Positions 6,707 to 24,435 of a DNA stretch of 64,000 bases are shown here, piece by piece. A model generated the notes under the pieces. It was not told the DNA's origin. It searched no databases and saw nothing but the letters and a program-made list of their open reading frames with translations. The stretch comes from an uncultured Methanosarcinales archaeon (GTDB lineage: Archaea > Nanobdellota > Nanobdellia > Woesearchaeales > DSVV01): assembly GCA_964556185.1 (NCBI GenBank), contig CAZKVI010000002.1, forward strand, positions 9,930-73,929. Direction: 5' to 3'. Each line of letters begins with the position of its first letter. Within the stretch, counting starts at the first letter, position 1. The position numbers and the translations under genes were made by a program.

Positions 6707-7924
6707 TTAAATTCCATTATCCAATGGAACTTGTTCACCTGTTCTTTCAGGAGTTCCTAATGGACCTGCTGCTTGTTTCAGAACTTCGACTTTGTCAGTG
6801 TATTCCCATGTAAAGTCAGGATCGTTTCTTCCAAAGTGTCCGTAAGTTGCTGTTTTCTTGTAGATTGGTCTTCTTAATTTAAGATGATTAATCATATCTG
6901 CAGGTTTTAGTGGGAAGTGTTCTCTAACTAGTTCTGCAATCTTCTCTTCTGGAATTTTGTTTGTTCCAAAGCAGTGTGTTAAAACAGAAACTGGTTCTGC
7001 AACACCAATTGCATAAGCTAATTGAACTTCACATTTGTCTGCTAATCCAGCTGCAACAATGTTCTTTGCAATATATCTAGCTGCATATGCTGCTGATCTA
7101 TCTACTTTTGAAGGATCTTTTCCAGAGAAAGCACCGCCACCATGTGAACCATGTCCACCATATGTATCAACAATAATCTTTCTTCCTGTTACTCCTGCGT
7201 CTGCTACTGGTCCACCAATTACAAAAGAACCTGTTGGATTAACAAAGAATTTTGTGTCTGCATCAATCCATTGACCACAAACAGGTTTGATTACTCTTTC
7301 AATTAAGTCAGTTCTTATTTGTTCTAGAGTAACATCTGGGTCATGTTGTGTTGAAACAACTACTGCATCAACTCTTATAGCTTTGCCGTCTTGATATTCA
7401 ACAGTTACTTGAGATTTTGAATCTGGTCTAAGATAAGTTAATTCTTTTGCTTTTCTTATTTTGTCTAGGTGTTGTAATATCTTATGGGCTAATATAATTG
7501 GTAGTGGCATTAGTTCAGGTGTTTCATTTGTTGCATAACCAAACATTAGTCCTTGATCACCTGCACCTTGTTCTTTGTGTAATCCTTCGCCTTCTGTAAC
7601 TCCAATAGAAATATCAGGACTTTGTCCAGATATAGAAACTAAAACACCACAAGTATTCCCATCAAAGCCATATTTTGGATTATCATAACCTGCTTCAACT
7701 ATTGTTTTTCTTGCAATTGTCTGAATGTCTGCAAATGCTGAGGTTGTTACTTCTCCTGCAACAACTACAAAACCTGTTTTTGTTAAACATTCAATTGCAA
7801 CCCTTGAATTAGGATCTTTTTCATAAAGAGCATCTAAAACTGCGTCACTAATCTGGTCACATAGTTTGTCTGGGTGACCTCCACTTACTGATTCTGATGT
7901 AAAAAAGTATTTTCCATTTTTCAT
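6707..7924 (-). CDS. metK: S-adenosylmethionine synthetase, bacterial/eukaryotic type
   Basis: Diagnostic MAT motifs '[13 protein letters not shown]', '[12 protein letters not shown]' and '[27 protein letters not shown]'. About 20 extra C-terminal residues. Confidence 0.9.
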
Positions 7925-8361: not shown

Positions 8362-9699
8362 ATGTTTGAAGAATTCAAAAATAAAAAATGGTATAGACAA
8401 GGTGGTTTAGTTGTTCCATTTTTTGAAAATGCAGCAATGAGTACTATGACTGAAATTGTTGGAAAAGATGGTTATGTTGGAATTTATAGAGCAGAGAAAA
8501 ATCATGGTTATTTTAATAAAGAGAAATTAAAAGAAGGTGCTTATTTTAATATTAAAGAACAATTAAAAAATATTAGATATGTTGATGAATTATATCTAAA
8601 ATGGAAGAAACATGCTTTACAAGCTTTGAAATTAGTTGAGTCTAATGCATCTTTGAAAGAGTTAATTCCTGTTTTAGAAGATTTCTGGAGAACTGCTTGG
8701 GTAATTGAGTTTTATGATGCATATGGCGAACAGATTACAAAAGAGTATTTTAATTTAAGTTCTGATGAGATTTCTGTATTGTTTTCTAGTACTTTTATTC
8801 CAAAAATGCAAGAAGAACATTTGGAATTATTAAAATTAGCTTTAGAAGATGGAAATATTGAAAACCATTACAAAGAGTTTTATTTTATCAAAGCAAGTTG
8901 GGCAGATGCTTCTGAATATTCAATTGATGAGATAAAAGAGAAAGTTAATGGGTTGAAGAAGAAATCTGTGGAAGATATTAAAAAAGAGATTCATAAGATT
9001 GAAGAGCATTATGGTAAAATTAATAAAGAAAAATTAAAGATTGGTGAAAAGTTGAATGAGGATCAGAAAAAGATTGCTTATTTTTTTGAGAAATTAACAG
9101 AATGGAGAGATGAACGTAAAGTTTTTGTGCAAAAATGTAATTGTTATTTGCAAAAGTTTTTGCTTAAATTAGAAAAAGAACACAATATTCCTTTAAAGTA
9201 TTTGAAATTTATTAATTATTATAATTTTGCAGAAGATTCTTCTAGTGAATTAGATTTAGAATTATTGAAAAAAAGACATGAGTTTTGTGTTGATATAATG
9301 CAAGATAAATGGACATATTTACATGGTGATGAAGCTAAGGAATTAGCTAGTATTATTGAGAAAGAGTTTTCTTCTGATGCAAAAGAAGTAAAAGGAATGT
9401 GTGCTTGTCGAGGACATGTTAAAGGAAAAGTCTGTGTTGTTATGAATACAGAGGAATTTTCAGATTTTAAAGAAGGGAATGTATTAGTAACAGCTTGTAC
9501 AAGACCAGAATTTGCTCCTTTAATGAAAAAAGCAGTGGCAATTGTTACAGATGAAGGCGGAATTACCTCACATGCAGCAATTGTTTCAAGAGAATTAAAT
9601 ATTCCATGTGTAATTGGTACACAAAAAGCAACTTCTATATTTAAGAATGGAATGACTGTTGAAGTAGACGCTGATAATGGAATAGTTAAGATAGTTTAA
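8362..9699 (+). CDS. PEP-utilising-enzyme swivel (phosphohistidine) domain protein, PpsA/rifampin-phosphotransferase-like, no ATP-grasp
   Basis: C-terminus 'GMCACRGHVKGKVCVV...IVTDEGGITSHAAIVSRELNIPCVIGT' is the PEP-utilisers mobile-domain signature with the catalytic His. The N-terminal ~330 aa align with the corresponding parts of ORFs 18233 and 20812. Confidence 0.6.
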   Translation: MFEEFKNKKWYRQGGLVVPFFENAAMSTMTEIVGKDGYVGIYRAEKNHGYFNKEKLKEGAYFNIKEQLKNIRYVDELYLKWKKHALQALKLVESNASLKELIPVLEDFWRTAWVIEFYDAYGEQITKEYFNLSSDEISVLFSSTFIPKMQEEHLELLKLALEDGNIENHYKEFYFIKASWADASEYSIDEIKEKVNGLKKKSVEDIKKEIHKIEEHYGKINKEKLKIGEKLNEDQKKIAYFFEKLTEWRDERKVFVQKCNCYLQKFLLKLEKEHNIPLKYLKFINYYNFAEDSSSELDLELLKKRHEFCVDIMQDKWTYLHGDEAKELASIIEKEFSSDAKEVKGMCACRGHVKGKVCVVMNTEEFSDFKEGNVLVTACTRPEFAPLMKKAVAIVTDEGGITSHAAIVSRELNIPCVIGTQKATSIFKNGMTVEVDADNGIVKIV

Positions 9700-11116
9700 T
9701 CTTATCCAAATAAACTTTAATTACTTCTGTTGCTCTAACATCATCTTCATTATAGTCAATAACTAATTGTAATTTATGTTTGTCTCCTGTTTCTAAGAAA
9801 TCATTGTACAATGCAACGCTTTCCATTGCATTGACTTCTTTGTGTTTCCAATTGTAGCCAAGATAATGTGCTATTTCTTTCAAACCTTGTCCATAAGCAG
9901 GGAATGCTACGTATTCTCTAATTATTTTATGTAAATCAACTAATTTATCTAAGATTTCTTCACCAATTCCATATAATTTAATCATGTGTTTTATTCTTGT
10001 TTTTTCATAGTCTCCAAAGTGATAAAGTAAATACTGATCATATTGTTTAAGAAATTCTAAGAATTCTGCAAACATTTTGCCTTCGTCTTCTCGCTTATGG
10101 GCTACAAAAGAATAATATTTGCCATCAACTAATGCGCCAAATAAATAATCTATCTTAATAAGGCCTTCATCATCTGTTCCTTCTAAATCTAAGTAAATAA
10201 TTGTCTTTGCATCTGGCATTGTAACTTTTCCAAATACAATTGGTTTATTTTTTACTAAAGCTTCTGCACTTCGTTGCATTGCTTGGGCTGTTTTGTTTCC
10301 AACACCATCTAATCCTATTAATTTATCAATATCTGTATTAGCAAGATCTTTTAAAGTGTAAAGTCCTATTTTATTTAGTGAAATCTTTCTTTTTAATCCA
10401 ACATTAAGAGCTAAGGATATGTCAGATTGGGAAACTGCCATCTTATTGCAATAAGTTTTCCAAGGGTATGCACATGCATTGTAAGTTGGAGAGGCTTTTC
10501 TCTTGTCGAGAATCTTATTAACACCTTCAATTGCATCTTTAACTTTGTCTTTAAAGTCTGCAAATTTGAAACCAAATGATTTCATTTCTCTATTTATTAT
10601 ATAGAATTTCTCAGGAGTATAACCTTGTATTTTTCCAAGTAAATAATTGTAAAAAGCAGCTTGCATTGCATGTTTCTCTCTAACATTCTTTGCATGTTTT
10701 ATTTCTTTTACAATATAATAATAGTTCCCAAAGTCACTCTTGCCTTTTCTTTTTTCTAAGATATCAAATTCTCCATGTAAGCCTTCTTGTAATAACATTA
10801 ATGGGAAATTGTGTAATGACTCAACACCTTTTTGCATTTCTTCTAATAATTCCATAAAACCTTGTTTTCTGTCTTCTAAATCACAATGTTCTGCTTTTGG
10901 ATATAATTCTTTTACAACATTATCTTCATGCTCATTTCCTTTTTTAAATAATAATTCAAAGTATTCACTTCTAGGATCTTTTAATTTGTCGTCAGCAAAA
11001 TGCCTACAAAAGACAGCAAACGGTGATTCTACAAACAATCTAACATCTGTTCCAGATATTTTTGCTTTTCCATTTGTAAATTTATCATAGATTTCTTTAA
11101 TATCCACTTTATTCAC
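9686..11116 (-). CDS. RecB-family PD-(D/E)xK nuclease fused to HhH and an RNase-H-like 3'-5' exonuclease domain (TM0106-like)
   Basis: N-terminal 'GEFDIL...YYIVKEIKHAK' gives the D...ExK core. 'LIGLDGVGNKTAQAM' is an HhH motif. The C-terminal 'IIYLDLEGTDDEGL...YHFGDYEKTRI...VIDYNEDDV' gives DEDD-type acidic residues. Confidence 0.5.
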   Translation of the reverse strand: MNKVDIKEIYDKFTNGKAKISGTDVRLFVESPFAVFCRHFADDKLKDPRSEYFELLFKKGNEHEDNVVKELYPKAEHCDLEDRKQGFMELLEEMQKGVESLHNFPLMLLQEGLHGEFDILEKRKGKSDFGNYYYIVKEIKHAKNVREKHAMQAAFYNYLLGKIQGYTPEKFYIINREMKSFGFKFADFKDKVKDAIEGVNKILDKRKASPTYNACAYPWKTYCNKMAVSQSDISLALNVGLKRKISLNKIGLYTLKDLANTDIDKLIGLDGVGNKTAQAMQRSAEALVKNKPIVFGKVTMPDAKTIIYLDLEGTDDEGLIKIDYLFGALVDGKYYSFVAHKREDEGKMFAEFLEFLKQYDQYLLYHFGDYEKTRIKHMIKLYGIGEEILDKLVDLHKIIREYVAFPAYGQGLKEIAHYLGYNWKHKEVNAMESVALYNDFLETGDKHKLQLVIDYNEDDVRATEVIKVYLDKIKLS

Positions 11117-13346: not shown

Positions 13347-14561
13347 TCATTCCTTTAACAAACCATAACCAATTAATCTAAATCTATTTACAACTCTTCT
13401 AGAAATAGTTACTCTAGCTCCAACTTCGCAACAAACTGGTAATTTTAATTTACATTTAATTAAATCCTTACTTAATTCTGTAACAACTCCAACAGTTGCA
13501 GCAGAATTAACATTTAACATTAAGGGTTCCATCTTTTTAATTGGTTCTACAGTAAGTTCTTCTGCACTACCCACAACTCTTTCAAGTAAATGTGTTTCTA
13601 AGGTTAATTCATATCTTGTTTCTGGTAATTTATCAGGTAAACCTACAACTCCACCTGTTAATGCATCTGATTTAACTATTGCAGGATCTAATTCTGTTAA
13701 TAATGCAATGCTTCCACCTGGTCCAACTTCTTTTACAGCTTTTCCACCAGTCATTAAAGAAGTTATTTTTGCTTTTATTGGTTTGAAAACCTTAACATTC
13801 TTTTCTTCTACACCATATCCTGGTTTTATTTCAATATCATCTCCAACTTTTAATTTTCCTTGAATAAGACTACCGCCAAGAACACCACCTTTAATATTAT
13901 TAATTTCTGATCCAGGTTTGTTAATATCAAAGCTTCTTGCAATATACATCATTGGATCTAATTTAGGATCTCTTTTTGGAGTTGGTATATGTGTTTCAAT
14001 TGCTTCAATAACTTTTCCAACATTAATGTTTTGTCTTGCAGATAAAGGAATAATAGGAGCATCTTCATAAGGAGTTCCTTTTAGAAATTCTTTTATTTGT
14101 TCGTGGTTTTTTAATGCTCTTTCTTTATCAACTAAATCAACTTTATTTTGTAGAACAATAACTTTCTCAACACCTAAGATTTGTAAAGCTTGTAAATGTT
14201 CTCTTGTTTGAGGTTGTGGACAGGCTTCATTTGCTGCCACTAATAGTAGTGCACCGTCGATAATTGTAGTTCCTGCTAACATTGTAGCCATTAAACTTTC
14301 GTGTCCAGGTGCGTCAACAAAAGAAACTTTTCTTAGAAGTTTTGCAGTTTTTGTTTTTTTAGCTGTGAAAGTTTTTTTATCTTTGTAGAAAGTAGCGTCA
14401 GCATAACCAAGTCTTATTGTAATTCCTCTTTTGATTTCTTCAGAGTGTGTATCAGTCCATTTCCCAGATAATTGTTCAGTTAGTGTAGTCTTACCATGGT
14501 CTACATGTCCAACTAAACCAATGTTAATTTCTGGTTGGATTATTTCTTTTGCTTTTGCCAC
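13347..14561 (-). CDS. translation initiation factor 2 gamma subunit (aIF2-gamma)
   Basis: 'NIGLVGHVDHGKTTL' P-loop, 'VDAPGHE', 'NKVDL' and the zinc-ribbon Cys pair. It sits directly downstream of rps6e, the conserved archaeal gene order. Confidence 0.9.
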   Translation of the reverse strand: MAKAKEIIQPEINIGLVGHVDHGKTTLTEQLSGKWTDTHSEEIKRGITIRLGYADATFYKDKKTFTAKKTKTAKLLRKVSFVDAPGHESLMATMLAGTTIIDGALLLVAANEACPQPQTREHLQALQILGVEKVIVLQNKVDLVDKERALKNHEQIKEFLKGTPYEDAPIIPLSARQNINVGKVIEAIETHIPTPKRDPKLDPMMYIARSFDINKPGSEINNIKGGVLGGSLIQGKLKVGDDIEIKPGYGVEEKNVKVFKPIKAKITSLMTGGKAVKEVGPGGSIALLTELDPAIVKSDALTGGVVGLPDKLPETRYELTLETHLLERVVGSAEELTVEPIKKMEPLMLNVNSAATVGVVTELSKDLIKCKLKLPVCCEVGARVTISRRVVNRFRLIGYGLLKE

Positions 14562-14569
14562 TGTTTATT

Positions 14570-15328
14570 TCACTCTTCCTTCACAGAAGCCTTGTCGGCT
14601 TCTTGCTTTCCTTCGGAAAGTTTAGGTTCTTCTTTCTTTTCTTCTACAGGTTTCTCCTCAACTTTCTCTTCAGTTTTTGGTTCTTCCTTTACTTTTTTAG
14701 GAGTTTCTTCTTTTGGCTCCTCTTTCTTTTCTTCCTTAGGAGCTTCAACTGCTTTTTCTTCTTTAGGTTCAGGCTTAGCTTCTTCTTTCACTTCTTCAGT
14801 TGGTTTCTCTTCCTTTGGTGCTTCTTCTTTTACTTCAGCCTTAGGTTTTTCTTTTACTTTAGCTTCTTCCTTTGGTGCTTCAGGTTTTGCATCTCCTTCA
14901 CCTTCGGAAACTTCTGCAACATCTAATGAAGCTTTTCCAGCTTTTAAGACTTTCAAGTTAATTTGATGAATCTTTTCATGAATAGTATTTCCGCATACGA
15001 TTCTTCTTTGTCTAGAATCATTAAACTTTTGGAAAACTTTGTTTTTCCTTCTTTTCTTTTTTAATGCTTTAATTCCAGTGCTAGCGGTACTTAAAATTCT
15101 TTTTCTACCTTGGCCTGGAACATCTTTTCTCATTGGGAAACCACAATAATCAGAACCGCCAGTTATTTCAAATTCATAACCAGTTAGATCAATAGATTCG
15201 CCTCTTATCTTTTCGCCAATCTTTTTACCTAGAAATGATGTAGCTAAATCGTCTTTAACTTCTCTTTGAAAACATTTTTTGGATTTTGGATCTCCAATAA
15301 CAAGTTTAAATTCTGCCATTTTTAACAC
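14570..15328 (-). CDS. rps6e: ribosomal protein S6e with a ~110-aa Lys/Glu/Pro-rich C-terminal extension
   Basis: N-terminal 'AEFKLVIGDPKSKK...GYEFEITGGSDYCGFPMRKDV...RKRIL' matches S6e. The C-terminal KPEAPKEEAKVKEKPKAEVKEE... repeats continue in-frame to the stop. Confidence 0.8.
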   Translation of the reverse strand: MLKMAEFKLVIGDPKSKKCFQREVKDDLATSFLGKKIGEKIRGESIDLTGYEFEITGGSDYCGFPMRKDVPGQGRKRILSTASTGIKALKKKRRKNKVFQKFNDSRQRRIVCGNTIHEKIHQINLKVLKAGKASLDVAEVSEGEGDAKPEAPKEEAKVKEKPKAEVKEEAPKEEKPTEEVKEEAKPEPKEEKAVEAPKEEKKEEPKEETPKKVKEEPKTEEKVEEKPVEEKKEEPKLSEGKQEADKASVKEE

Positions 15329-17428: not shown

Positions 17429-18127
17429 GTGACAGATTATATAACTCCTGAAAGACATGTATTTACTGTTGTAGGTAAAGGAGGAAGATTAAGTGACTTA
17501 GAGAGAACTCTTGAGTTAGCTGTAGGGGAAGTTATTCCAAAATCTTGGTCTACTACAAGTCTAACATCTGTCTGTTCAAAAGTTGGTGATGAAGTTGTAT
17601 TTGATTTTTATTCTACACTAAAATCTGTTCCATCAGAAGGCGAAGGTCTTAAATCAAAAGTTAATTTAAGTGAAATTGGTGCTTTAGCAGTTTTGTTGTT
17701 AAAGTGTGGTTATGAAGTTATGACTCCTGATTATCAAGAACCAAGTGTAAGTGATGATTCTAAAATAACAGACAGACCTTTGTCAAGAACACATCTTGAT
17801 CTGTTTTATGCTGGAACACTTGTTGGAGAAAATGGTAATTTGGATACTTTGAGAGGATTACTTGAGTTTTCTGGAGAAGGTGAAAATCGAGTAGTAGATA
17901 TTATAATGTCACCTTTTCCTAAAAAATATCTAAGATTAATATCTAAAAGACAAGTTGGATTCGATCTTTATGTAAAAAAAATAAACCCAAGGTTTCCAAC
18001 AGAATCAAAAATTTTCAGGCAAGAATTAGGGGGTTTAGCAACAAAAATGTTAATTTCTGGTTATAAATTATCAAGTAGAATGGAAATGGAGCCAGAACTA
18101 TGGCATTTACCTTATCATGATTTCTAA
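17429..18127 (+). CDS. hypothetical protein, first gene of the PEP-utiliser-like operon
   Basis: 232 aa, K-poor composition like the two downstream genes. No motif recognised. Confidence 0.4.
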   Translation: MTDYITPERHVFTVVGKGGRLSDLERTLELAVGEVIPKSWSTTSLTSVCSKVGDEVVFDFYSTLKSVPSEGEGLKSKVNLSEIGALAVLLLKCGYEVMTPDYQEPSVSDDSKITDRPLSRTHLDLFYAGTLVGENGNLDTLRGLLEFSGEGENRVVDIIMSPFPKKYLRLISKRQVGFDLYVKKINPRFPTESKIFRQELGGLATKMLISGYKLSSRMEMEPELWHLPYHDF

Positions 18128-18232
18128 ATCTTTCACATAAACTAAGTAAAAATACCCTCAATTAGTAACAACGAAGGAGAACATATAAAAATAAGCTTAC
18201 TTTACCTTATTATTTAGGGGGCTAATTTTGGG

Positions 18233-20815
18233 GTGTTGAAGTTGTCTAATGAAGAAAAATGGCTTACTTGGCTCTATGCTAATTCAAGTCCTGGTGGATC
18301 TGTACCTTTCCTGACTTTAGAGATATTTAGACGATCTGCTTTATCAGGTCATGATATGGAAAGAGAGTTTGGTAGACCAGTTGGAATGTTACATCGTTGG
18401 TCAAATGGAAGATCATGGAAATATTTTCTAAGAGAAGATGTAGAAGCAGTAGGAAGAGTTTTTTTAGAAAGAATAATAGAAGATCCTGAATTTCTAGAAC
18501 TTCATTATACTGAAGCAGAAAGACGAGTTAATGTTCTAAGACAATCTTCAATGAGGTTTGCTCAAATTGATTTTAGTGGAGCAAATGAGGTTGGTTTTAG
18601 GGGCGCATATTCAATTGTTGCAAATAATTATTGGTCATTGGGTTTTTATGGTGTTATGCCAATTTTATTTGGAGGATTTATTTTAGAACCAGAAATTAAT
18701 AAGTATCTTTTGTCATTGGGTTTAGATTCTGAGAAATTTGAAGATGTTTTAGCTACATTTACAAAACCAAGGGTTCCAACCCCATTGCATCATTGGGAAA
18801 CAAGTTTAGATGAATTGGTTTTTGATATTAAAGCAAGTCCTACACTTAGGACTACTTTTGATGGATCTCCAAGTGAAATATTGAGAGGTATTGAAGGAAG
18901 TGAATTCTATAATAAACTTGAAGAGCACATAAAAGAATTTCAATGGGTTTTCTATAAATGGACAGGTCCAATAAGAGATACTGAGTTTTTTGTAAGTGAA
19001 ATTAAAAGAAGATTAACTACGAAAACATCACAAGCAGAGTCTGACTTAGATGCGATTCTTGCAAAAGAAGAAAGATTAATTAGTGAGTTAGGTATTGATG
19101 AAACACATAGAAGATATTTAGGATCATTAAGGACTTTAGTAGAGATGAAAAATCTCAAAGCAGAAGGAATGTCTTATGGTGCTTATTGTCTTCATCCATT
19201 TAGAACTGAGTTGTGTGCACGTTACGGAATAAGACCAGAAGATACAAGATATTTGTTAGAAGAAGATATTCATAGATTATTAGTTAAAGGAGATTTAGAT
19301 TTAGAAAAACATAGAGCTAGAAAAGATGAGTTTTTATGGGTTGTTGAGAATTGTAGAGAAAGAATGTATGTTGGTAGTGAAGTTGAAGATATAAGAGCAA
19401 GAGAAGAGCCAAAACACGAAACAAACTTTCTTGGAACTGTAGCATACCCAGGAGAAGCAGTTGGTACTGCTAGAGTTGTTGTAGATTATGAAACTTATAA
19501 TGGTTTATTTAGTAAAGGAGATATTTTAGTTGCACCAAGAACAACAGATAGTTATTTTCCTTTATTTCCATTAGCAGGCGCAATTATAACTTCTGAAGGA
19601 GGTTTAACATCTCATGCAGCAACTATTGCAAGAGAATATAAAATACCAACAATTATTGGAGTAACTGGAATACATACAAGACTTCCAGACAATGCTATAC
19701 TTAATGTATGTGCAGATCCATCTAATTTAGAAGGAGGATCTATTGATAGAATTGTTACTGGTCCTATTAGAAAACACACAACAAGAAAATTTCCTGAAGA
19801 ACAAAGAAGAACAAGAATAAATAGACAACCAATGGATAGGGTAGGAGGTCCAGAAATAGTGAATTTTACAGATGTGATGTATGGAGAACCAAATAGATCA
19901 TTACTAGGCACAAAAGCAACTAATCAGATATTGTGTTGTCGTATGCTTAATGTCCCAGATGGGTTTGTTGTTACAACTGTTTTGTATCGGAAGTTTCTTG
20001 AAGAATCAAGTTTAATGAGTAAAATAAGAGAATTACCAGATAGATTAGAAAGAATCGGAACAGATCCTCGAGATATTAGGAGGTTATCAGCAGAATATAG
20101 GCATGCAATTCTTGATACAGATGTTCATGGTTTATTTGACCCGGTTTTTCATGCTTATAAGGAATTAGGAAGTCCTAGTACTGCAACAAGATCAAGTGCA
20201 CTTTATGAAGATATGGTAAGAAGAGAAGGAGAACAAGGAAGATCTTTTGCAGGAATATTTGATACTTTTACGAATTTACGAGATAGAAGAGAAATTGTTT
20301 CTGGGATTAAAAGATGTTGGGCTTCTTTATTTTCACCAAGAGCACTTTCTTATACTATAACTACTGGTTTAGATCCATCAAGTAATCAAATGGCTGTTCT
20401 TATACAAGAAATGTTGAATGGTGTTAGTTCAGGAGTTATGTATACAGATGTTGATGGACATATTTTAATTGAAGCATGTGAAGGATTATGTGAACCATTA
20501 GTTGCAGGAGAAATAACTCCAACAACTTATGTTTTAGACCAGGATTCTTTATATGTTGCTCATGTTGTTCCAAGTAATCAAAGTTTTGCAAGTTATATTA
20601 ATGCAGACGGGGTTCTTGATAGAAGAGATCCATCAAGACCAAAGGTTTTAAGTCCAAAAGAGTTATTTGAATTAGGAAAGATTGCTAGTAAAATAAGAAA
20701 TTATTTTGGTCCTCGTCAAGATATTGAATTTACTATTGCTGGAAATATTATTCATGTAACGCAAAATAGAGATATTACAACAGAAGTATATTTACCTGCA
20801 GGTGTAGCAAGATGA
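18233..20815 (+). CDS. permuted PEP-synthase-like dikinase homolog: helical N-domain + swivel phosphohistidine domain + C-terminal PpsA-type ATP-grasp (PPDK_N) domain
   Basis: Mid-protein 'AYPGEAVGTARVV...IITSEGGLTSHAATIAREYKIPTIIGVTG' is the swivel His domain. C-terminal 'GTKATNQ...VPDGFVVTT...SSALYEDM...SFAGIFDTFTNL...IKRCWASLFSPRALSYTI...MAVLIQEML...GVMYT' matches the ATP-grasp nucleotide-binding domain that is N-terminal in PpsA. GTG start at 18233; first in-frame ATG is ~40 codons in. No PEP-binding TIM-barrel. Confidence 0.65.
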   Translation: MLKLSNEEKWLTWLYANSSPGGSVPFLTLEIFRRSALSGHDMEREFGRPVGMLHRWSNGRSWKYFLREDVEAVGRVFLERIIEDPEFLELHYTEAERRVNVLRQSSMRFAQIDFSGANEVGFRGAYSIVANNYWSLGFYGVMPILFGGFILEPEINKYLLSLGLDSEKFEDVLATFTKPRVPTPLHHWETSLDELVFDIKASPTLRTTFDGSPSEILRGIEGSEFYNKLEEHIKEFQWVFYKWTGPIRDTEFFVSEIKRRLTTKTSQAESDLDAILAKEERLISELGIDETHRRYLGSLRTLVEMKNLKAEGMSYGAYCLHPFRTELCARYGIRPEDTRYLLEEDIHRLLVKGDLDLEKHRARKDEFLWVVENCRERMYVGSEVEDIRAREEPKHETNFLGTVAYPGEAVGTARVVVDYETYNGLFSKGDILVAPRTTDSYFPLFPLAGAIITSEGGLTSHAATIAREYKIPTIIGVTGIHTRLPDNAILNVCADPSNLEGGSIDRIVTGPIRKHTTRKFPEEQRRTRINRQPMDRVGGPEIVNFTDVMYGEPNRSLLGTKATNQILCCRMLNVPDGFVVTTVLYRKFLEESSLMSKIRELPDRLERIGTDPRDIRRLSAEYRHAILDTDVHGLFDPVFHAYKELGSPSTATRSSALYEDMVRREGEQGRSFAGIFDTFTNLRDRREIVSGIKRCWASLFSPRALSYTITTGLDPSSNQMAVLIQEMLNGVSSGVMYTDVDGHILIEACEGLCEPLVAGEITPTTYVLDQDSLYVAHVVPSNQSFASYINADGVLDRRDPSRPKVLSPKELFELGKIASKIRNYFGPRQDIEFTIAGNIIHVTQNRDITTEVYLPAGVAR

Positions 20816-22293
20816 GATGGAAATATGTTTTACATAGGGATATGAGTGTATTATTTGAGTCTCTTGTACAGAGAGGTATAAGAGATTATACAGCAGAAGT
20901 TTTGGGACTAGATGGTGTTGTTTTAAGTGGTCGTAAAATAGATCATGGAGATATTTATCATGATGAAAGAGAATTAGAACAACTTAGATTAAAAGTTAGA
21001 GCTAAAGTAGATCAAGGAAACTATTTAGAAGAACTTGTTATAGCTTGTGAAAAGGAATGTGAAGAACTAGTTGCTTTTAGTAAAGGAGACAAGGTTGGAA
21101 GTGATGCAGTAGTTCTTGGAGCTTACTTTGATAAAGTTTGTAGAGTTATGCCTTTCTTACCTGTGTTTCCTGTTGTTGTTGAGGGAATTGTTGCTGAACA
21201 AATGGGTCAAATATTATCAAAATATGCAACACCTGAACATCCTGTTAGAGAACTTAGAGAAACTTTTAGTACTCCTCATATGAAGTTTGCAGTACAAAAA
21301 GAACAAGAGTCATTATATAGAATTGCAGGAGCTATACAAAATTCTAGGGAATTAACTAAGTTATTTCAAGAAAAACAAGGTCAAGAATTGTTTGAAGCAT
21401 TAGGTGAAACTTGGTTAGCTACATATTTACAAAATTATGTTGATAGGTATGCTTGGATTGAAACAAGACATTTTAAAGGAGAATTATGGACACCAGAAAT
21501 TGTAATTAATAGAATTAAAGGAGTTCTTAATGAAGATTGTATGGGTAGATATAGGGTATTACTTTCATCATGGGGAGTATCTCAAAGAAGGATTGTAGAA
21601 TTATATGGTGAATTGGGTTTTTTAAGAGAAGATAAAAAAAGAATAGATACATTACGTAAATTAATTTTATTAAAAACACAAAGAAAGGATGCAATTAATC
21701 GAGCAGCTTATCATATGCATCCGGTGTTTTCTAAAGTAGCAGATGCTAGTGGTTTAGAAGTAAGTGATTTGGTTTATTTAGAACCCCATGAATTTGTTTC
21801 TCTTGCACAAGATCCTTCTTTGGTAGAAGATTATCAAAAAAACATTGAAGCTAGGAAACAAGGTTTTGCTTTAATAATGTATGACGGAGATATTAGATTA
21901 TTTGAAGATTATGAAAATGAAGTAGAAACTCCAATGGTTTATTCTGGAGAAGATGAAGTTAGGGGACAGAGGGCTTATCCAGGAGAAGTTACTGGATTAG
22001 CAAGAGTTGTTAGAAATCAATCTCAAGTTGCTTCTTTATCTGGAGCAGATTTAATGGTTTGTATGAATATCCATCCAGATTATGTAGTTGAATTAAGAAG
22101 AATTAGTGAAGAAGGTGCTTGGCAAGGTGGCATTATAACAGATGAAGGAGGAATTGCAAGTCATGCTTCTCAATTATCAAGAGAATTTGGATTGCCATGT
22201 ATTATAGGAACAGGTAATGCAACTAGTGTTTTTCAAACAGGAGATAATGCATATCTTAATGCTACAGAAGGTTATGCAAGAAAGTTGGATTAG
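20812..22293 (+). CDS. PEP-utilising swivel (phosphohistidine) domain protein, paralog of 8362 and 18233, no ATP-grasp
   Basis: C-terminal 'RAYPGEVTGLARVV...IITDEGGIASHASQLSREFGLPCIIGTG'. The region upstream of the swivel domain aligns with the other two paralogs. It overlaps 18233-20815 by 4 nt. Confidence 0.6.
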   Translation: MRWKYVLHRDMSVLFESLVQRGIRDYTAEVLGLDGVVLSGRKIDHGDIYHDERELEQLRLKVRAKVDQGNYLEELVIACEKECEELVAFSKGDKVGSDAVVLGAYFDKVCRVMPFLPVFPVVVEGIVAEQMGQILSKYATPEHPVRELRETFSTPHMKFAVQKEQESLYRIAGAIQNSRELTKLFQEKQGQELFEALGETWLATYLQNYVDRYAWIETRHFKGELWTPEIVINRIKGVLNEDCMGRYRVLLSSWGVSQRRIVELYGELGFLREDKKRIDTLRKLILLKTQRKDAINRAAYHMHPVFSKVADASGLEVSDLVYLEPHEFVSLAQDPSLVEDYQKNIEARKQGFALIMYDGDIRLFEDYENEVETPMVYSGEDEVRGQRAYPGEVTGLARVVRNQSQVASLSGADLMVCMNIHPDYVVELRRISEEGAWQGGIITDEGGIASHASQLSREFGLPCIIGTGNATSVFQTGDNAYLNATEGYARKLD

Positions 22294-22354
22294 CCAGTAT
22301 ACAAATCCCTATACTAATTCTTGGTTAATTACTACTTTTATATAGTGAAATAGA

Positions 22355-22367
22355 AAGACTTATATAC
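22355..22367 (+). promoter_or_regulatory. archaeal BRE/TATA promoter ('aaagacTTATATA')
   Basis: Purine-rich BRE plus TATA box ending 22 nt before the ATG at 22390. The same 13-mer recurs upstream of 24576 and 25454. Confidence 0.45.
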
Positions 22368-22389
22368 TAGTACATTCCTCAGATTATGT

Positions 22390-23463
22390 ATGAATCTAGT
22401 ACAAAGATTAGCAAATTCTGTACCTAGAAGAGTTAGAGTAGCTGCAGCAGTACTACCTACAGCTATAATGGCTTATTTTGGTATTGGTTGTACAGAACCT
22501 GATAATGATGTTTCAGATACAGATACTGCAGCAGATCATGCAACTGAAGATGGTTCAATATTATTTCATGCTAGTCCTGCAAAAGGTGAACCAAGACAAA
22601 TATATAGATTAGATTTGGATTCTTATGAACTTTCACAAGTAACTGATTTTCCAGAATTTGGTGCTTCTCATCCAATCTGGTCTCCTGATGGAAGTTATAT
22701 TGTAGTTTCAAAACAAAATGGAAATAATGGAAGAGGAAGTAGACATCATAGACCTTATTTAATGGCACCAGATGGTTCTGCTCAAGCAGCTATTGAAACA
22801 GGAGCTGAAGGTGATGAAGAAGATAAGTTTGCACAAGTAACTGAAGATGGTACACTTGTTTATGCAACACTAAGACCTTTTGGTTGTGATGATGAAGGGT
22901 GTACAGCTGGTCAAGTAATGACAGCTGATTTAGATGATGTTTTAGGAACAGAAAGAGCAGTAGCTGGAGAACAATATGGAGAAGGTGCATGGGCTGTTAA
23001 TGTTTCGCCTGATGGACAAAAAATATCATATGTAAAAAAGATTTATGGTCAAGATAAAGCTGAACATGATGTTTATGTAGCAAATATTGATGGAACTAAT
23101 GAACAAAGACTTACTAATATGGGACGTATTAGTTATTCAGGAGCTGAATGGTCTCCTGATGGAAAAAGATTAGTATTTTCCTCAGCAGCTGATACAGGTG
23201 GAGAAAATCATGAACTCTACATTGTTGATGCAGATGGAAATAATCTTACACAAGTTCTTAATCCAGAATTAGCAGGTCATGATTGTGTTGATCCTGTTTT
23301 TACAAATAATGGTGAAATTGTTTTTGTTGATAGACTTAGTGGACCAAATAGACAATTAGCTATTGTTGGTGAAGATGGTCTTGGTTTAGAATACTTAACA
23401 GAAGAAGAAGACTTTCATGCATTAGGTGCTCCTGATTATGGTGTTCAAGGTCCAGTTGAATAA
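22390..23463 (+). CDS. TolB-like WD40/beta-propeller protein with N-terminal signal/TM
   Basis: Repeated 'SPDG(S/Q/K)' blades: 'WSPDGSYIVVS', 'VSPDGQKISYV' and 'WSPDGKRLVFSS'. N-terminal hydrophobic segment. A/G/D-rich, K-poor. Confidence 0.6.
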   Translation: MNLVQRLANSVPRRVRVAAAVLPTAIMAYFGIGCTEPDNDVSDTDTAADHATEDGSILFHASPAKGEPRQIYRLDLDSYELSQVTDFPEFGASHPIWSPDGSYIVVSKQNGNNGRGSRHHRPYLMAPDGSAQAAIETGAEGDEEDKFAQVTEDGTLVYATLRPFGCDDEGCTAGQVMTADLDDVLGTERAVAGEQYGEGAWAVNVSPDGQKISYVKKIYGQDKAEHDVYVANIDGTNEQRLTNMGRISYSGAEWSPDGKRLVFSSAADTGGENHELYIVDADGNNLTQVLNPELAGHDCVDPVFTNNGEIVFVDRLSGPNRQLAIVGEDGLGLEYLTEEEDFHALGAPDYGVQGPVE

Positions 23464-23469
23464 ATTCTT

Positions 23470-24435
23470 TTACAATTCTTTAGAATATTCATCCATATCT
23501 TTCTCAGATTTCATTACTTTTCCCTTTCCAGCTTTTGCTTGCTTCATACTTTTCTTTACTCCTTTGATAAGCTTCTTATCTAAGTGTAAATAATTCTCCT
23601 CAGAAACTACAGACTTTCCTGTCTTTTGTTCTAGTTCTTCTCTTGTATGTTTCGCTATGCTTCCACCATCTTTTGCAGAATTTTTACATTCTTTAAATCC
23701 TCTAGAATCTTTTGCAGTAGTAATATCAGTAGTAGCTTTCTCACCAATCATTGTAAGGATTAATTCCCAATCATTCATATGATCTCTTAAGTTTTGATTT
23801 TTCTTTTGTAATCCTTTGAATTTTTTATGTTCTTGTGTAGTTTTTCCAAATGTTGCATTACTTATTTCATTTGTTAAGATTGCAAACTCTTTGCCTTCTT
23901 CTACATCCCTTTGTCTCCATTCATCTGTAAGTTCTTGTCTTATAGCAATTCCTCTCAAGCGTTTATCAATCCACTCTTTTGGATAACCTTTAAGTTCATA
24001 ATATTTCTTGACTCTATCTTGAGCAATTTCTGGGTTTTCAATCTCTTCGATTCTTTCATATCCTACTTGAGCCAACCATTTTTTGAATGGTTCAGCTTTT
24101 TTAGAAGGTATTGATTGAATTATCCTAAACATAGATTTTGTATCTGCACAGTCTGTAGCATAATATTTACCATCTGAAGCAGGTAATTTCAGTTGTACCC
24201 AGATTGGGGACAACTGGAGTTGTTCAAATTCTCTATCTTTCACTTTACCCCAATACTGTCTAGGAGTTGGGCTTTCTGTTAATGCTTGAACTACATCAAC
24301 TATTGAAAAATACCATTTATTATTATGCCAGATTCTTCTGATTTTCTTATCTTGAAATACAATCAAAGTTTTCGTTTTGGAACGAAAACTAAGTTGCTTG
24401 TCAGCAACCAAAGATTTAGATTCCTTAGACTCCAT
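23470..24435 (-). CDS. BRO-N domain protein (phage antirepressor / DinD-like)
   Basis: N-terminal 'KIRRIWHNNKWYFSIVDVVQALTES' is the BRO-N signature. The charged C-terminal region resembles viral/prophage BRO-family proteins. Confidence 0.55.
   Translation of the reverse strand: MESKESKSLVADKQLSFRSKTKTLIVFQDKKIRRIWHNNKWYFSIVDVVQALTESPTPRQYWGKVKDREFEQLQLSPIWVQLKLPASDGKYYATDCADTKSMFRIIQSIPSKKAEPFKKWLAQVGYERIEEIENPEIAQDRVKKYYELKGYPKEWIDKRLRGIAIRQELTDEWRQRDVEEGKEFAILTNEISNATFGKTTQEHKKFKGLQKKNQNLRDHMNDWELILTMIGEKATTDITTAKDSRGFKECKNSAKDGGSIAKHTREELEQKTGKSVVSEENYLHLDKKLIKGVKKSMKQAKAGKGKVMKSEKDMDEYSKEL

What the first reader, a model, noticed from the sequence alone, without database searches (positions are those of the whole stretch)
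17429..22293. Operon of PEP-synthase-like phosphohistidine-swivel proteins with a circularly permuted ATP-grasp domain
ORF 18233-20815 is built in the order helical N-domain (~440 aa), swivel His domain ('GGLTSHAATIAREYKIPTIIG'), then a C-terminal ATP-grasp PPDK_N domain ('IKRCWASLFSPRALSYTI' etc.).
- In PpsA, PPDK and rifampin phosphotransferase the ATP-grasp domain is N-terminal, so this is the reverse order.
- No PEP/pyruvate-binding TIM-barrel is present, so it is not a PEP synthase.
- It is followed, with a 4-nt overlap, by a paralog (20812-22293) that has only the helical domain plus swivel His domain, and preceded by an unknown 232-aa protein.
- The best analogy is a rifampin-phosphotransferase-like enzyme (ATP to His to small-molecule substrate) with rearranged and split domains. 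One ATP-grasp copy may charge its own and its partner's swivel histidines in trans.
The substrate is unknown. This appears to be an uncharacterised phosphotransfer system.
Basis: partly seen in the sequence, partly recalled or inferred. Interest (0 to 1): 0.78.

Follow-up and report, generated by a model that had tools for sequence, protein, structure and literature searches.

The report
Split three-part histidine-swivel dikinase, partly fused
Two overlapping archaeal genes encode an uncharacterised ATP-driven phosphate-transfer enzyme related to the antibiotic-inactivating rifampin phosphotransferase, built from one ATP-binding domain and two different substrate-binding/histidine-carrier modules; its unusual domain order comes from fusing two genes of a three-gene operon that still exists unfused in bacteria.

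Summary
ORF2 (18233-20815, 860 aa) runs helical domain, phosphohistidine swivel domain (His461), then a C-terminal PPDK_N ATP-grasp. No PEP/pyruvate TIM barrel is present. ORF3 (20812-22293, 493 aa; 4-nt overlap) is a 25%-identical paralog of the helical-plus-swivel part (His451).

Fold and sequence searches place both proteins in the rifampin phosphotransferase (RPH) / HpeHI family of small-molecule dikinases, not with PEP synthase.

The large-plus-small gene pair is adjacent in all 9 independent loci found, always with different neighbours. ORF1 is not part of it.

The key new result is a 68.5%-GC bacterial-type contig that carries the same system as three genes in the same order: H (binding + swivel), I (ATP-grasp), H'. 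ORF2 is therefore an H-I gene fusion, not a circular permutation.

The same domain order is already known in plant glucan water dikinase. Separate H and I subunits are already known in HpeHI, CreHI and phenylphosphate synthase.

What I found no description of is one ATP-grasp paired with two distinct carrier modules. Relatives in uncultivated archaea carry 2-6 such modules per ATP-grasp.

Substrate unknown. Verdict: a new variant of a known kind, moderately interesting.

The parts
18233..20815 (+). ORF2, the large subunit (860 aa). It is a fusion of an H-type module (substrate-binding helical domain + His swivel) and an I-type ATP-grasp.
   Evidence: ORF. Pfam domain order. AF2 model with mean pLDDT 85.6. 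Orthologs in 8 other loci. Unfused H and I genes in L013.
18233..19417 (+). ORF2 N-terminal, mostly helical domain (aa 1-395). It is the presumed acceptor-substrate-binding domain and a divergent relative of the RPH rifampin-binding domain.
   Evidence: Helical in the AF2 model. Paralogous to the ORF3 N-domain. The ORF3 model aligns to RPH RIF-BD + swivel. ORF2 aa 330-490 align to RPH at positions 705-866 of chain 5HV2, which is native residues ~693-854. A profile of the N-domain alone finds nothing in PDB by sequence.
19418..19753 (+). ORF2 phosphohistidine swivel domain (aa 396-507). The motif T453-S-E-G-G-L-T-S-H461 carries the phospho-carrier His461 (codon 19613-19615).
19754..19852 (+). 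Flexible linker between swivel and ATP-grasp (aa 508-540). With the linker at aa ~388-397, it tethers the swivel domain on both sides.
   Evidence: pLDDT is below 50 for aa 508-527 and aa 390-395. This region is poorly conserved in A1.
19853..20812 (+). ORF2 C-terminal ATP-grasp (PPDK_N) domain, aa 541-860. K561, R653, T678 and E832 correspond to RPH K22, R117, T136 and E297.
20812..20815 (+). ATGA overlap of the ORF2 stop codon and the ORF3 start codon, suggesting translational coupling.
   Evidence: Sequence. The same 4-nt overlap occurs in L001, L003, L011 and L012.
20812..22293 (+). ORF3, the small subunit (493 aa). It is a second, divergent H'-type module: helical binding domain (aa ~1-367) + swivel domain (aa ~378-493). 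The motif T443-D-E-G-G-I-A-S-H451 places the His451 codon at 22162-22164.
18183..18221 (+). Possible own expression signals for ORF2-ORF3: an A/T-rich TATA-like box ATATAAAAATAA (18183-18194) and a GGGGG Shine-Dalgarno-like run (18217-21) 12-16 nt before the GTG start.
   Evidence: Read directly from the sequence. This is inference only; no archaeal promoter tool was available.
17429..18127 (+). ORF1 (232 aa, internally duplicated, no known family). It is a neighbour and probably not part of the system.
   Evidence: No family hits. Conserved only in L001 and absent next to the pair in L002-L011. Internal repeat scores 68 against 25.8 +/- 4.3 for shuffles.
8362..9699 (+). A third, orphan binding + swivel protein (445 aa; TDEGGITSH motif) 8.5 kb upstream. 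It is a possible further client of the ORF2 ATP-grasp.
   Evidence: tblastn. PF00391, E 2e-25. hhalign probability 99.6% to the ORF3 family over aa 165-442. No other PPDK_N-type ATP-grasp in the 64-kb window.

Best explanation
ORF2 and ORF3 together encode a heteromeric small-molecule (or glycan) dikinase of the RPH / HpeHI family. It has one ATP-grasp and two non-identical modules, each made of an acceptor-binding domain plus a His swivel domain.

Proposed mechanism:
1. The C-terminal ATP-grasp of ORF2 binds ATP and (pyro)phosphorylates a swivel histidine. ATP ends as AMP + Pi, as in other dikinases.
2. It charges its own doubly tethered His461 in cis and ORF3 His451 in trans.
3. Each phospho-His domain then swings back onto its own helical domain and phosphorylates a hydroxyl-bearing acceptor bound there.

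Origin and context:
- The unusual order binding-swivel-ATP-grasp arose when the first two genes of an H-I-H' operon fused.
- The unit looks like an accessory, horizontally mobile function (detoxification, scavenging or surface modification) rather than central carbon metabolism.

What is shown:
- Domain identities and folds.
- Conservation of the catalytic His in both proteins and of the ATP-site residues.
- Obligate adjacency and co-divergence of the two genes.
- The existence of the unfused triad.

What is inferred:
- Charging of both histidines by the single ATP-grasp.
- Dikinase stoichiometry.
- That both modules phosphorylate acceptors.
- The nature of the acceptor.
For: Domain content and order.

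Swivel motif T/S-x-x-G-G-x-x-x-H (defined in PMC12167813): present in ORF2 and ORF3. The His is kept in every large and small subunit examined.

ORF3 fold: RPH is the only solved structure matched beyond the swivel, exactly as reported for HpeH.

Genetic linkage: large + small genes are adjacent in 9 of 9 loci with unrelated neighbours, often with a 4-nt overlap.

Co-divergence: small subunits form a clade in 179 of 200 bootstraps, with the same branching order as the large subunits.

Unfused triad: the H(506)-I(278)-H'(498) operon in L013-L015 has each gene best-matching the corresponding part (28% identity, E 3e-46; 38%, E 3e-32; 24%, E 1.5e-37) and only one ATP-grasp gene for two carriers. 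The P0194 contig has the same order.

One ATP-grasp with several modules is common among relatives: 18 AG+2 and 18 AG+3 modules, plus AG+5 and AG+6. P0004 has the layout AG-RD-SW-RD-SW.

Trans-charging has experimental precedent in HpeHI, which works without forming a stable complex.

Accessory character:
- Neighbours differ in every locus and include a transposase and toxin-antitoxin genes.
- No match was found in 185,579 GTDB species representatives by pattern scan.
- ORF1-ORF3 and the next gene have a foreign Arg/Lys ratio but native GC3.
- A homologous triad exists in a 68.5%-GC contig.
Against: - No biochemical data exist for any member.
- No conserved neighbour points to a substrate.
- The RPH catalytic Arg666-Glu667-Lys670 block is only partly kept. 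The basic residue is present (ORF2 K306; ORF3 K288, which is R in most of the family). The Glu position is N307 in ORF2 and T289 in ORF3. Lys670 aligns with K292 in ORF3 but with A310 in ORF2. The second half-reaction may therefore differ.
- The helical domains match no curated family model. PRK08296 models match only the swivel region, and the precomputed PF27448 annotation carried by RPH/HpeH-like hits is absent.
- Trans-charging of ORF3 is not demonstrated. No complex model could be computed.
- Pattern scans can miss divergent members, so the rarity is a lower bound on distribution.
Confidence: 0.6

Rival explanations
1. Phosphorelay or phosphate-splitting. The two histidines act in series rather than in parallel. 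Either the phosphoryl group passes His461 -> His451 -> acceptor, as in a PTS chain, or the pyrophosphoryl-His intermediate hands its terminal (gamma) phosphate to the second carrier instead of to water. In the second case one ATP would yield two phosphorylated products.
For: Two distinct, co-evolving carrier modules exist per ATP-grasp in fused and unfused forms. Relatives carry chains of up to 6 swivel modules. Swivel domains are the relay elements of PTS Enzyme I, which are structural matches.
Against: Every module keeps its own large helical binding domain, which a pure relay element would not need. Known family members (RPH, HpeHI, GWD) hydrolyse the gamma phosphate and use a single carrier. 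There is no direct evidence for His-to-His transfer.
Confidence: 0.12
2. ORF2 alone is a complete, self-sufficient dikinase. ORF3 is then not charged by it. It would be a structural or regulatory dimer partner (HpeH is predicted to dimerise through its helical region), or an independent enzyme using another phosphoryl donor.
For: ORF2 contains all three domains needed. HpeH exists as a monomer/dimer mixture with a predicted helical dimer interface. Many organisms, including this window (8362-9699), encode stand-alone binding + swivel proteins with no adjacent ATP-grasp.
Against: ORF3-family proteins keep the phospho-carrier His and its loop in all members, which argues against a purely structural role. 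The gene is adjacent to the ATP-grasp-bearing gene in 9 of 9 loci, and in the unfused triad too.
Confidence: 0.15
3. It is a polymer (glycan or cell-envelope) dikinase analogous to glucan water dikinase. It would use several binding modules to act on an insoluble or polymeric substrate.
For: It has the same acceptor-His-ATP domain order as StGWD1. Dikinase chemistry is used on poorly reactive polymer hydroxyls. Glycosyltransferase genes lie near the pair in L002, L005 and L006. Multi-module relatives would suit a multivalent substrate.
Against: No carbohydrate-binding module is detected. The helical domain matches RPH RIF-BD, and no GWD central-domain entry appears among the top fold hits. The GWD authors report no clear PDB equivalent for that domain. 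The glycosyltransferase neighbourhood is not conserved.
Confidence: 0.1
4. It is a functional PEP synthase / pyruvate phosphate dikinase, as automatic annotation would suggest, with the helical domain replacing the TIM barrel.
For: The top NCBIfam hits are PEP synthase models. Sources label relatives 'phosphoenolpyruvate synthase/pyruvate phosphate dikinase'.
Against: Scores are far below the curated cut-offs (217 bits against 598; 207 against 740). Matches cover only the ATP-grasp and swivel. There is no PF02896 domain in these genes and no PpsA TIM-barrel-like sequence in the 64-kb window. RPH, with the same kind of middle domain, does not phosphorylate pyruvate (PMC4844700). The patchy, accessory distribution does not fit a central gluconeogenic enzyme.
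Confidence: 0.03

Closest known systems
Two-component small-molecule dikinases HpeHI, CreHI and phenylphosphate synthase PpsAB (PMC12167813)
   Different: Here H and I are fused into one chain, and a second, strongly diverged H' (25% identical) is an obligate partner. The helical domains are not recognised by the PRK08296-type models beyond the swivel. There are no aromatic-catabolism genes nearby. The host is a low-GC archaeon.
Rifampin phosphotransferase RPH (PDB 5HV1 / 5FBS; NF041857)
   Different: RPH is a single chain in the order ATP-grasp / RIF-BD / swivel, with one carrier. Here the order is binding / swivel / ATP-grasp, plus a second binding / swivel protein. The catalytic Glu667 is not conserved. 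The binding domain is about 80 aa smaller and only ~15-17% identical. NCBIfam gives 191 bits against a cut-off of 999.
Plant/algal alpha-glucan water dikinase GWD1/PWD (PMC13553574)
   Same: The linear order is the same: acceptor-binding domain, His domain, C-terminal PPDK_N-type ATP-binding domain. The His domain is tethered on both sides. The chemistry is dikinase chemistry.
   Different: GWD has CBM45/CBM20 modules and a central domain with no clear PDB equivalent. It has a single carrier and is eukaryotic and plastidial. ORF2 has no CBM, and its helical domain resembles RPH instead. The shared order is most simply an independent rearrangement.
PEP synthase PpsA / pyruvate phosphate dikinase PPDK
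   Same: The ATP-grasp and swivel domains are homologous, and both use a phospho-His swivelling mechanism.
   Different: There is no PEP/pyruvate-binding TIM barrel (PF02896). The domain order is different, and scores fall well below the equivalog cut-offs.
Multi-module PEP-utilizer proteins of uncultivated archaea (e.g. P0192 = MFH1308259.1 'PEP/pyruvate-binding domain-containing protein [archaeon]', P0182, P0193); uncharacterised
   Same: They are the closest sequence relatives of the ORF2 binding + swivel part outside its own family. They also have one ATP-grasp with 2-6 binding + swivel modules.
   Different: In most of them all modules sit in one polypeptide and the ATP-grasp comes first. 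Their ATP-grasp domains fall in clades other than the ORF2 family's in a rough NJ tree.

Membership tests
PEP synthase / PPDK (EC 2.7.9.2 / 2.7.9.1) | C-terminal PEP/pyruvate-binding TIM barrel (PF02896) | tested here: not met
   No PF02896 in ORF1-ORF3 or the next gene. tblastn with two PpsA TIM-barrel domains finds nothing in the 64-kb window.
PEP synthase / PPDK (EC 2.7.9.2 / 2.7.9.1) | Score above the curated equivalog cut-off (NF005057, TIGR01418) | tested here: not met
   216.9 bits against a cut-off of 598; 207.3 against 739.75. [quoted passage not shown]
PEP synthase / PPDK (EC 2.7.9.2 / 2.7.9.1) | PPDK_N ATP-grasp and PEP-utilizers swivel domain with a carrier His | tested here: met
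   PF01326, E 3e-48, and PF00391, E 1e-18. His461 is invariant. The order is reversed relative to PpsA.
Rifampin phosphotransferase (RPH) family | ATP-grasp with K22, R117, T136 and E297 (ATP/Mg site) | tested here: met
Rifampin phosphotransferase (RPH) family | Middle helical substrate-binding domain of the RIF-BD fold followed by a swivel domain with the carrier His | tested here: met
Rifampin phosphotransferase (RPH) family | Single chain in the order ATP-grasp / binding domain / swivel | tested here: not met
   The order is binding / swivel / ATP-grasp, plus a second binding/swivel protein.
Rifampin phosphotransferase (RPH) family | Catalytic block 9: Arg666-Glu667 ... Lys670 | tested here: inconclusive
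   By profile alignment, R666 aligns with ORF3 K288 (R in most of the family) and ORF2 K306. E667 aligns with T289 and N307. K670 aligns with K292 in ORF3 and A310 in ORF2. An acidic residue is conserved 5 positions after the basic one (D293 in ORF3, E311 in ORF2). The alignment lies in a low-identity region.
Rifampin phosphotransferase (RPH) family | Rifampin-binding residues / rifampin inactivation; NF041857 cut-off | tested here: not met
   NF041857 gives 191.3 bits against a cut-off of 999. Individual rifampin-contact residues were not examined, and activity is not testable here.
Two-component dikinases (HpeHI / CreHI / PpsAB) | Separate H (binding + swivel) and I (ATP-grasp) polypeptides, both required | tested here: not met
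   H and I are fused in ORF2. They are separate in the homologous bacterial operon L013. The requirement for both parts is not testable here.
Two-component dikinases (HpeHI / CreHI / PpsAB) | Swivel motif T/S-x-x-G-G-x-x-x-H | tested here: met
   ORF2 has TSEGGLTSH (453-461) and ORF3 has TDEGGIASH (443-451). The motif is as defined in PMC12167813.
Two-component dikinases (HpeHI / CreHI / PpsAB) | H subunit ~45% identical to HpeH/CreH/PpsA, matched by PRK08296-type models; aromatic catabolic context | tested here: not met
   PRK08296 models match only the swivel region, at 48-66 bits against cut-offs of 578-730. Neighbours are unrelated to aromatic catabolism.
Glucan water dikinase (GWD/PWD) | Order: acceptor domain - His domain - C-terminal ATP-binding domain | tested here: met
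   One search compared with the StGWD1 domain map in PMC13553574.
Glucan water dikinase (GWD/PWD) | Carbohydrate-binding modules (CBM45/CBM20) and the GWD central-domain fold | tested here: not met

The most novel reading that the evidence does not exclude
The two carrier modules split the two phosphoryl groups of ATP. The ATP-grasp makes a pyrophosphoryl-His on one swivel. The terminal phosphate then goes to the second swivel histidine rather than to water, so one ATP phosphorylates two acceptors. More generally, the 2-6-module archaeal relatives would be assembly-line kinases in which one ATP site feeds several different acceptor sites. This would be a mode of dikinase catalysis and energy economy not described for any member of the superfamily.
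Probability: 0.08. Interest if true: 0.85.

Novelty: new variant of a known kind. Interest (0 to 1): 0.55.

Why it matters
1. It defines a conserved three-part dikinase unit: one ATP-grasp plus two distinct binding/His-carrier modules, seen as H-I-H' or as HI + H'. Current models of RPH, HpeHI, PpsA and GWD all use a single carrier and do not cover this. It raises a directly testable question: how does one ATP site serve two, or in relatives up to six, carriers?

2. It shows how domain-order permutations in this superfamily arise. Fusing neighbouring genes in either order would give the RPH order (I-H) or the ORF2/GWD order (H-I).

3. It is a practical annotation warning. These genes score best against PEP synthase models and are labelled as such in metagenomes. 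That would falsely add gluconeogenesis to metabolic reconstructions of DPANN-type archaea.

4. The family is accessory and apparently exchanged between high-GC bacteria and low-GC archaea. That fits a role in detoxification or modification of environmental small molecules, as for RPH and polyphenol/phenol kinases.

Tried and rejected
- Third word-index protein search with the ORF2 N-domain alone: only one fragment (P0181) was returned.
- MAFFT alignment with full-length PpsA sequences (A3): it mis-registered the ATP-grasp onto the helical domain, so I discarded it. Alignment A4, built with ATP-grasp fragments, replaced it.
- Pattern scans of the GTDB species representatives with A5 and A1: no confirmed locus.
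- JGI metagenome scan: it only re-found L004, as L007.
- tblastn of the ORF2 N-domain and the L013 H' protein against PLSDB plasmids: no match.
- PADLOC and PHROGs: no defence-system or phage family for ORF1-ORF3.
- ORF1: no hit in any library or in PDB sequences at E <= 10. I judged it not part of the unit.
- N-domain profile against PDB sequences: only chance-level hits. Homology to RIF-BD therefore had to be shown by fold comparison and through the ORF3 profile.
- afdb50 fold library: not available. A search for full-length structural analogues with the same order, such as GWD models, could not be run.
- Considered and rejected: an ORF-calling or assembly artefact hiding an N-terminal ATP-grasp. 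The architecture recurs on independent contigs, and nothing upstream resembles PPDK_N.
- Literature searches for multi-swivel or H-I-fused dikinases, or for such proteins in DPANN archaea: no description found in the held library.
Full report
**1. Observation**

The three ORFs exist as described.

ORF2 (18233-20815, 860 aa):
- Pfam finds a PEP-utilizers swivel domain at aa 427-492 (E 1e-18).
- Pfam finds a PPDK_N ATP-grasp at aa 557-850 (E 3e-48).
- There is no PF02896 TIM barrel.

ORF3 (20812-22293, 493 aa):
- It has only a C-terminal swivel domain (aa 415-487).
- It overlaps ORF2 by ATGA.
- It is a true paralog of ORF2 aa ~112-508: BLASTP 25% identity, E 1e-22; profile-profile probability 99.9%.

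ORF1 (232 aa) matches no family in Pfam, NCBIfam, PADLOC, PHROGs or PDB sequences.

A tblastn of PpsA TIM-barrel, ATP-grasp and swivel domains against the whole window gave three results:
- no TIM barrel anywhere;
- only one PPDK_N-type ATP-grasp, the one in ORF2;
- unexpectedly, a third swivel protein at 8362-9699.

**2. What the domains are**

By sequence, the closest solved structures are the Listeria rifampin phosphotransferase entries 5HV1 and 5FBS.

- swivel matches to pyruvate kinase, Enzyme I and PPDK.

The RPH residues that position ATP/Mg (K22, R117, T136, E297; PMC4844700) align with K561, R653, T678 and E832. These are invariant, or T/S, in the family.

The helical domain could not be assessed from the whole ORF2 model, so I modelled ORF3 (pLDDT 90.5, pTM 0.80). 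RPH is the only PDB structure that aligns beyond the swivel:
- Foldseek E 5.9e-15, TMq 0.55, spanning the rifampin-binding domain plus swivel.
- An ORF3-family profile hits RPH residues 557-865 at E 4.5e-28.

This mirrors what was reported for HpeH (PMC12167813).

Both proteins carry the swivel motif T/S-x-x-G-G-x-x-x-H: TSEGGLTSH461 in ORF2 and TDEGGIASH451 in ORF3. The histidine is retained in every ortholog examined.

The RPH catalytic block Arg666-Glu667-Lys670 is only partly conserved. A basic residue is present, but the Glu position is N in ORF2 and T in ORF3.

**3. The unit and its origin**

Homologs of ORF2 with the same architecture are very rare:
- The word-index search returned three clusters among 5.8 billion.
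- The exhaustive search of 1.84 billion representatives returned four 50%-identity clusters among the top hits.
- Pattern scans found none in the GTDB species representatives and one JGI locus.

Wherever a large gene is found, a small ORF3-like gene follows it directly. This holds in 9 of 9 loci: the window, L001, L002 (a Woesearchaeota MAG), L003/L004, L005/L006, L008, L009, L011 and L012. Spacing runs from a 4-nt overlap to 85 nt, and the surrounding genes are unrelated in each locus.

In an NJ tree the small subunits are monophyletic (179 of 200 bootstraps). They branch in the same order as the large subunits, which indicates co-divergence.

ORF1 accompanies the pair only in the closest syntenic relative, L001. 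A 105-nt spacer with a TATA-like box separates it from ORF2. I therefore exclude it from the unit.

Two stand-alone ~506-aa proteins (P0194, P0199) nest among the large-subunit binding + swivel parts. Their contigs give the key result:
- L013-L015 (68.5% GC, bacterial-type neighbours) carry three genes in a row: H (506 aa, swivel), I (278 aa, PPDK_N) and H' (498 aa, swivel).
- H best-matches ORF2 aa 8-494 (28% identity, E 3e-46).
- I best-matches ORF2 aa 639-848 (38% identity, E 3e-32).
- H' best-matches ORF3 aa 1-487 (24% identity, E 1.5e-37).
- The H stop and I start overlap.
- The P0194 contig has the same order.

ORF2 is therefore a fusion of the first two genes of an H-I-H' operon. The 'reverse' order is a by-product of that fusion. 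RPH corresponds to the other joining order, I-H.

**4. Wider family**

The exhaustive search with ORF2 aa 1-510 found 17,233 proteins at E <= 1e-3. I parsed the best 149 into domains:

| Architecture | Count |
|---|---|
| Single binding + swivel module | 53 |
| Two modules, no ATP-grasp | 44 |
| Three modules, no ATP-grasp | 8 |
| ATP-grasp + 2 modules | 18 |
| ATP-grasp + 3 modules | 18 |
| ATP-grasp + 5 modules | 1 |
| ATP-grasp + 6 modules | 1 |
| Swivel then ATP-grasp (ORF2-like) | 4 |
| Three modules - ATP-grasp - one module | 1 |
| Three modules - ATP-grasp | 1 |

Further points:
- One named example (P0192) is from an uncultivated archaeon.
- P0004, from an Egibacteraceae MAG, has the layout ATP-grasp-RD-swivel-RD-swivel.
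- One ATP-grasp with several carrier modules is thus a recurrent theme. I found no description of it in the held literature.
- In a rough NJ tree, the ATP-grasp domains of the ORF2 family form their own clade. The other swivel-before-grasp proteins (P0182, P0232) fall elsewhere, so this order probably arose more than once.

**5. Mechanism (inferred)**

By homology with RPH, HpeHI, PpsA and GWD, I propose these steps:
1. The ATP-grasp cleaves ATP and loads a swivel histidine.
2. The loaded domain swings to the helical domain and phosphorylates a bound acceptor, giving AMP + Pi + phospho-acceptor.

Both the fused and the unfused systems encode a single ATP-grasp but two conserved, catalytically equipped carriers. 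The simplest model is that it charges His461 in cis and His451 in trans. Trans-charging without a stable complex is experimentally established for HpeHI. The two modules have been distinct since before the family diversified. This suggests two acceptor sites or asymmetric roles.

Rivals are listed in the Rival explanations section:
- a serial relay or phosphate-splitting scheme;
- an uncharged structural partner;
- a GWD-like polymer kinase;
- a true PEP synthase (very unlikely).

**6. Context**

The pair sits in variable regions, next to a transposase in L011 and toxin-antitoxin-like genes in L002, L008 and L009.

In this window, ORF1, ORF2, ORF3 and the following PD40 beta-propeller gene have R/(K+R) of 0.43-0.70. 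Flanking genes have 0.16-0.26. GC3 is as low as in the neighbours. Together with the high-GC bacterial triad, this fits old horizontal acquisition followed by amelioration of synonymous sites. The function is likely accessory: detoxification, scavenging or modification. Family members act on rifampin, phenols and polyphenols, a prodigiosin precursor, and starch. No substrate can be assigned.

**7. Comparison and novelty**

Already known:
- The ATP-grasp/swivel dikinase mechanism.
- The RIF-BD-type binding domain.
- Splitting into H and I subunits (HpeHI, CreHI, PpsAB).
- The acceptor-His-ATP order (GWD).

New here:
- The conserved H-I-H' / HI + H' unit with two different carriers per ATP-grasp.
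- Its fusion origin.
- Its link to a large set of multi-module archaeal proteins.

I rate it a new variant of a known kind, with interest 0.55.

Noticed in passing
window 8362-9699 (+): A third binding + swivel protein (445 aa, motif TDEGGITSH, PF00391 E 2e-25). It has native Lys-rich composition and no ATP-grasp gene next to it. It is homologous to the ORF3 family over aa 165-442 (hhalign probability 99.6%). It may be a further client of the ORF2 ATP-grasp, or be charged by something outside the window.
   Followed up: partly
window 17429-23463 (ORF1, ORF2, ORF3, PD40 gene): Four consecutive genes have an Arg/(Lys+Arg) ratio of 0.43-0.70, against 0.16-0.26 in all flanking genes. Their GC3 (0.05-0.13) is as low as their neighbours'. 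This looks like an old horizontally acquired block whose synonymous sites have ameliorated. Family homologs occur in a 68.5%-GC contig (L013).
   Followed up: partly
window 23470-24435 (-): A Bro-N domain protein with a very strong match to the PADLOC phage-defence candidate PDC-S13 (E 6e-115) and to phrog_15286 (E 4e-88). It lies immediately downstream of the block, which hints at a mobile or variable region.
   Followed up: no
window 17429-18127 (+), ORF1: An orphan 232-aa protein made of two ~110-aa internal repeats (local alignment score 68, against 25.8 +/- 4.3 for shuffles). Its only homolog (~63% identical) is in the syntenic contig L001. It follows nadC (QRPTase) by 37 nt.
   Followed up: partly
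proteins P0182, P0189, P0192, P0193, P0195, P0197 etc.; locus L010 2012-8941: Giant proteins of 1,000-2,650 aa from uncultivated archaea. They have one PPDK_N ATP-grasp and 2-6 tandem binding + swivel modules, or 2-3 modules and no ATP-grasp. I found no description of these in the held literature.
   Followed up: partly
L008 5573-7540: The small-subunit ortholog in this divergent locus is 655 aa. It carries an extra ~170-aa C-terminal domain after the swivel. Ribose-5-phosphate isomerase B and a PLP-dependent enzyme lie directly upstream, co-directional with the pair.
   Followed up: no
window 22108-22128 (ORF3 aa 433-439): A seven-residue insertion (SEEGAWQ) lies just before the carrier-His loop of ORF3. 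It is absent from the seven other family members in alignment A2.
   Followed up: no
window 14570-15328 (-): Ribosomal protein S6e carries a ~120-aa Lys/Glu/Pro-rich low-complexity C-terminal tail. The opposite strand gives spurious Ser/Phe-rich ORFs (14535-14966).
   Followed up: no
window 6707-7924 (-) and 9686-11116 (-): A bacterial-type S-adenosylmethionine synthetase (MetK, three S-AdoMet_synt domains) sits in an otherwise archaeal gene set. A 476-aa Cas4-like/RNase_H_2 + HhH protein converges on the third swivel gene and overlaps its end by 14 nt.
   Followed up: no
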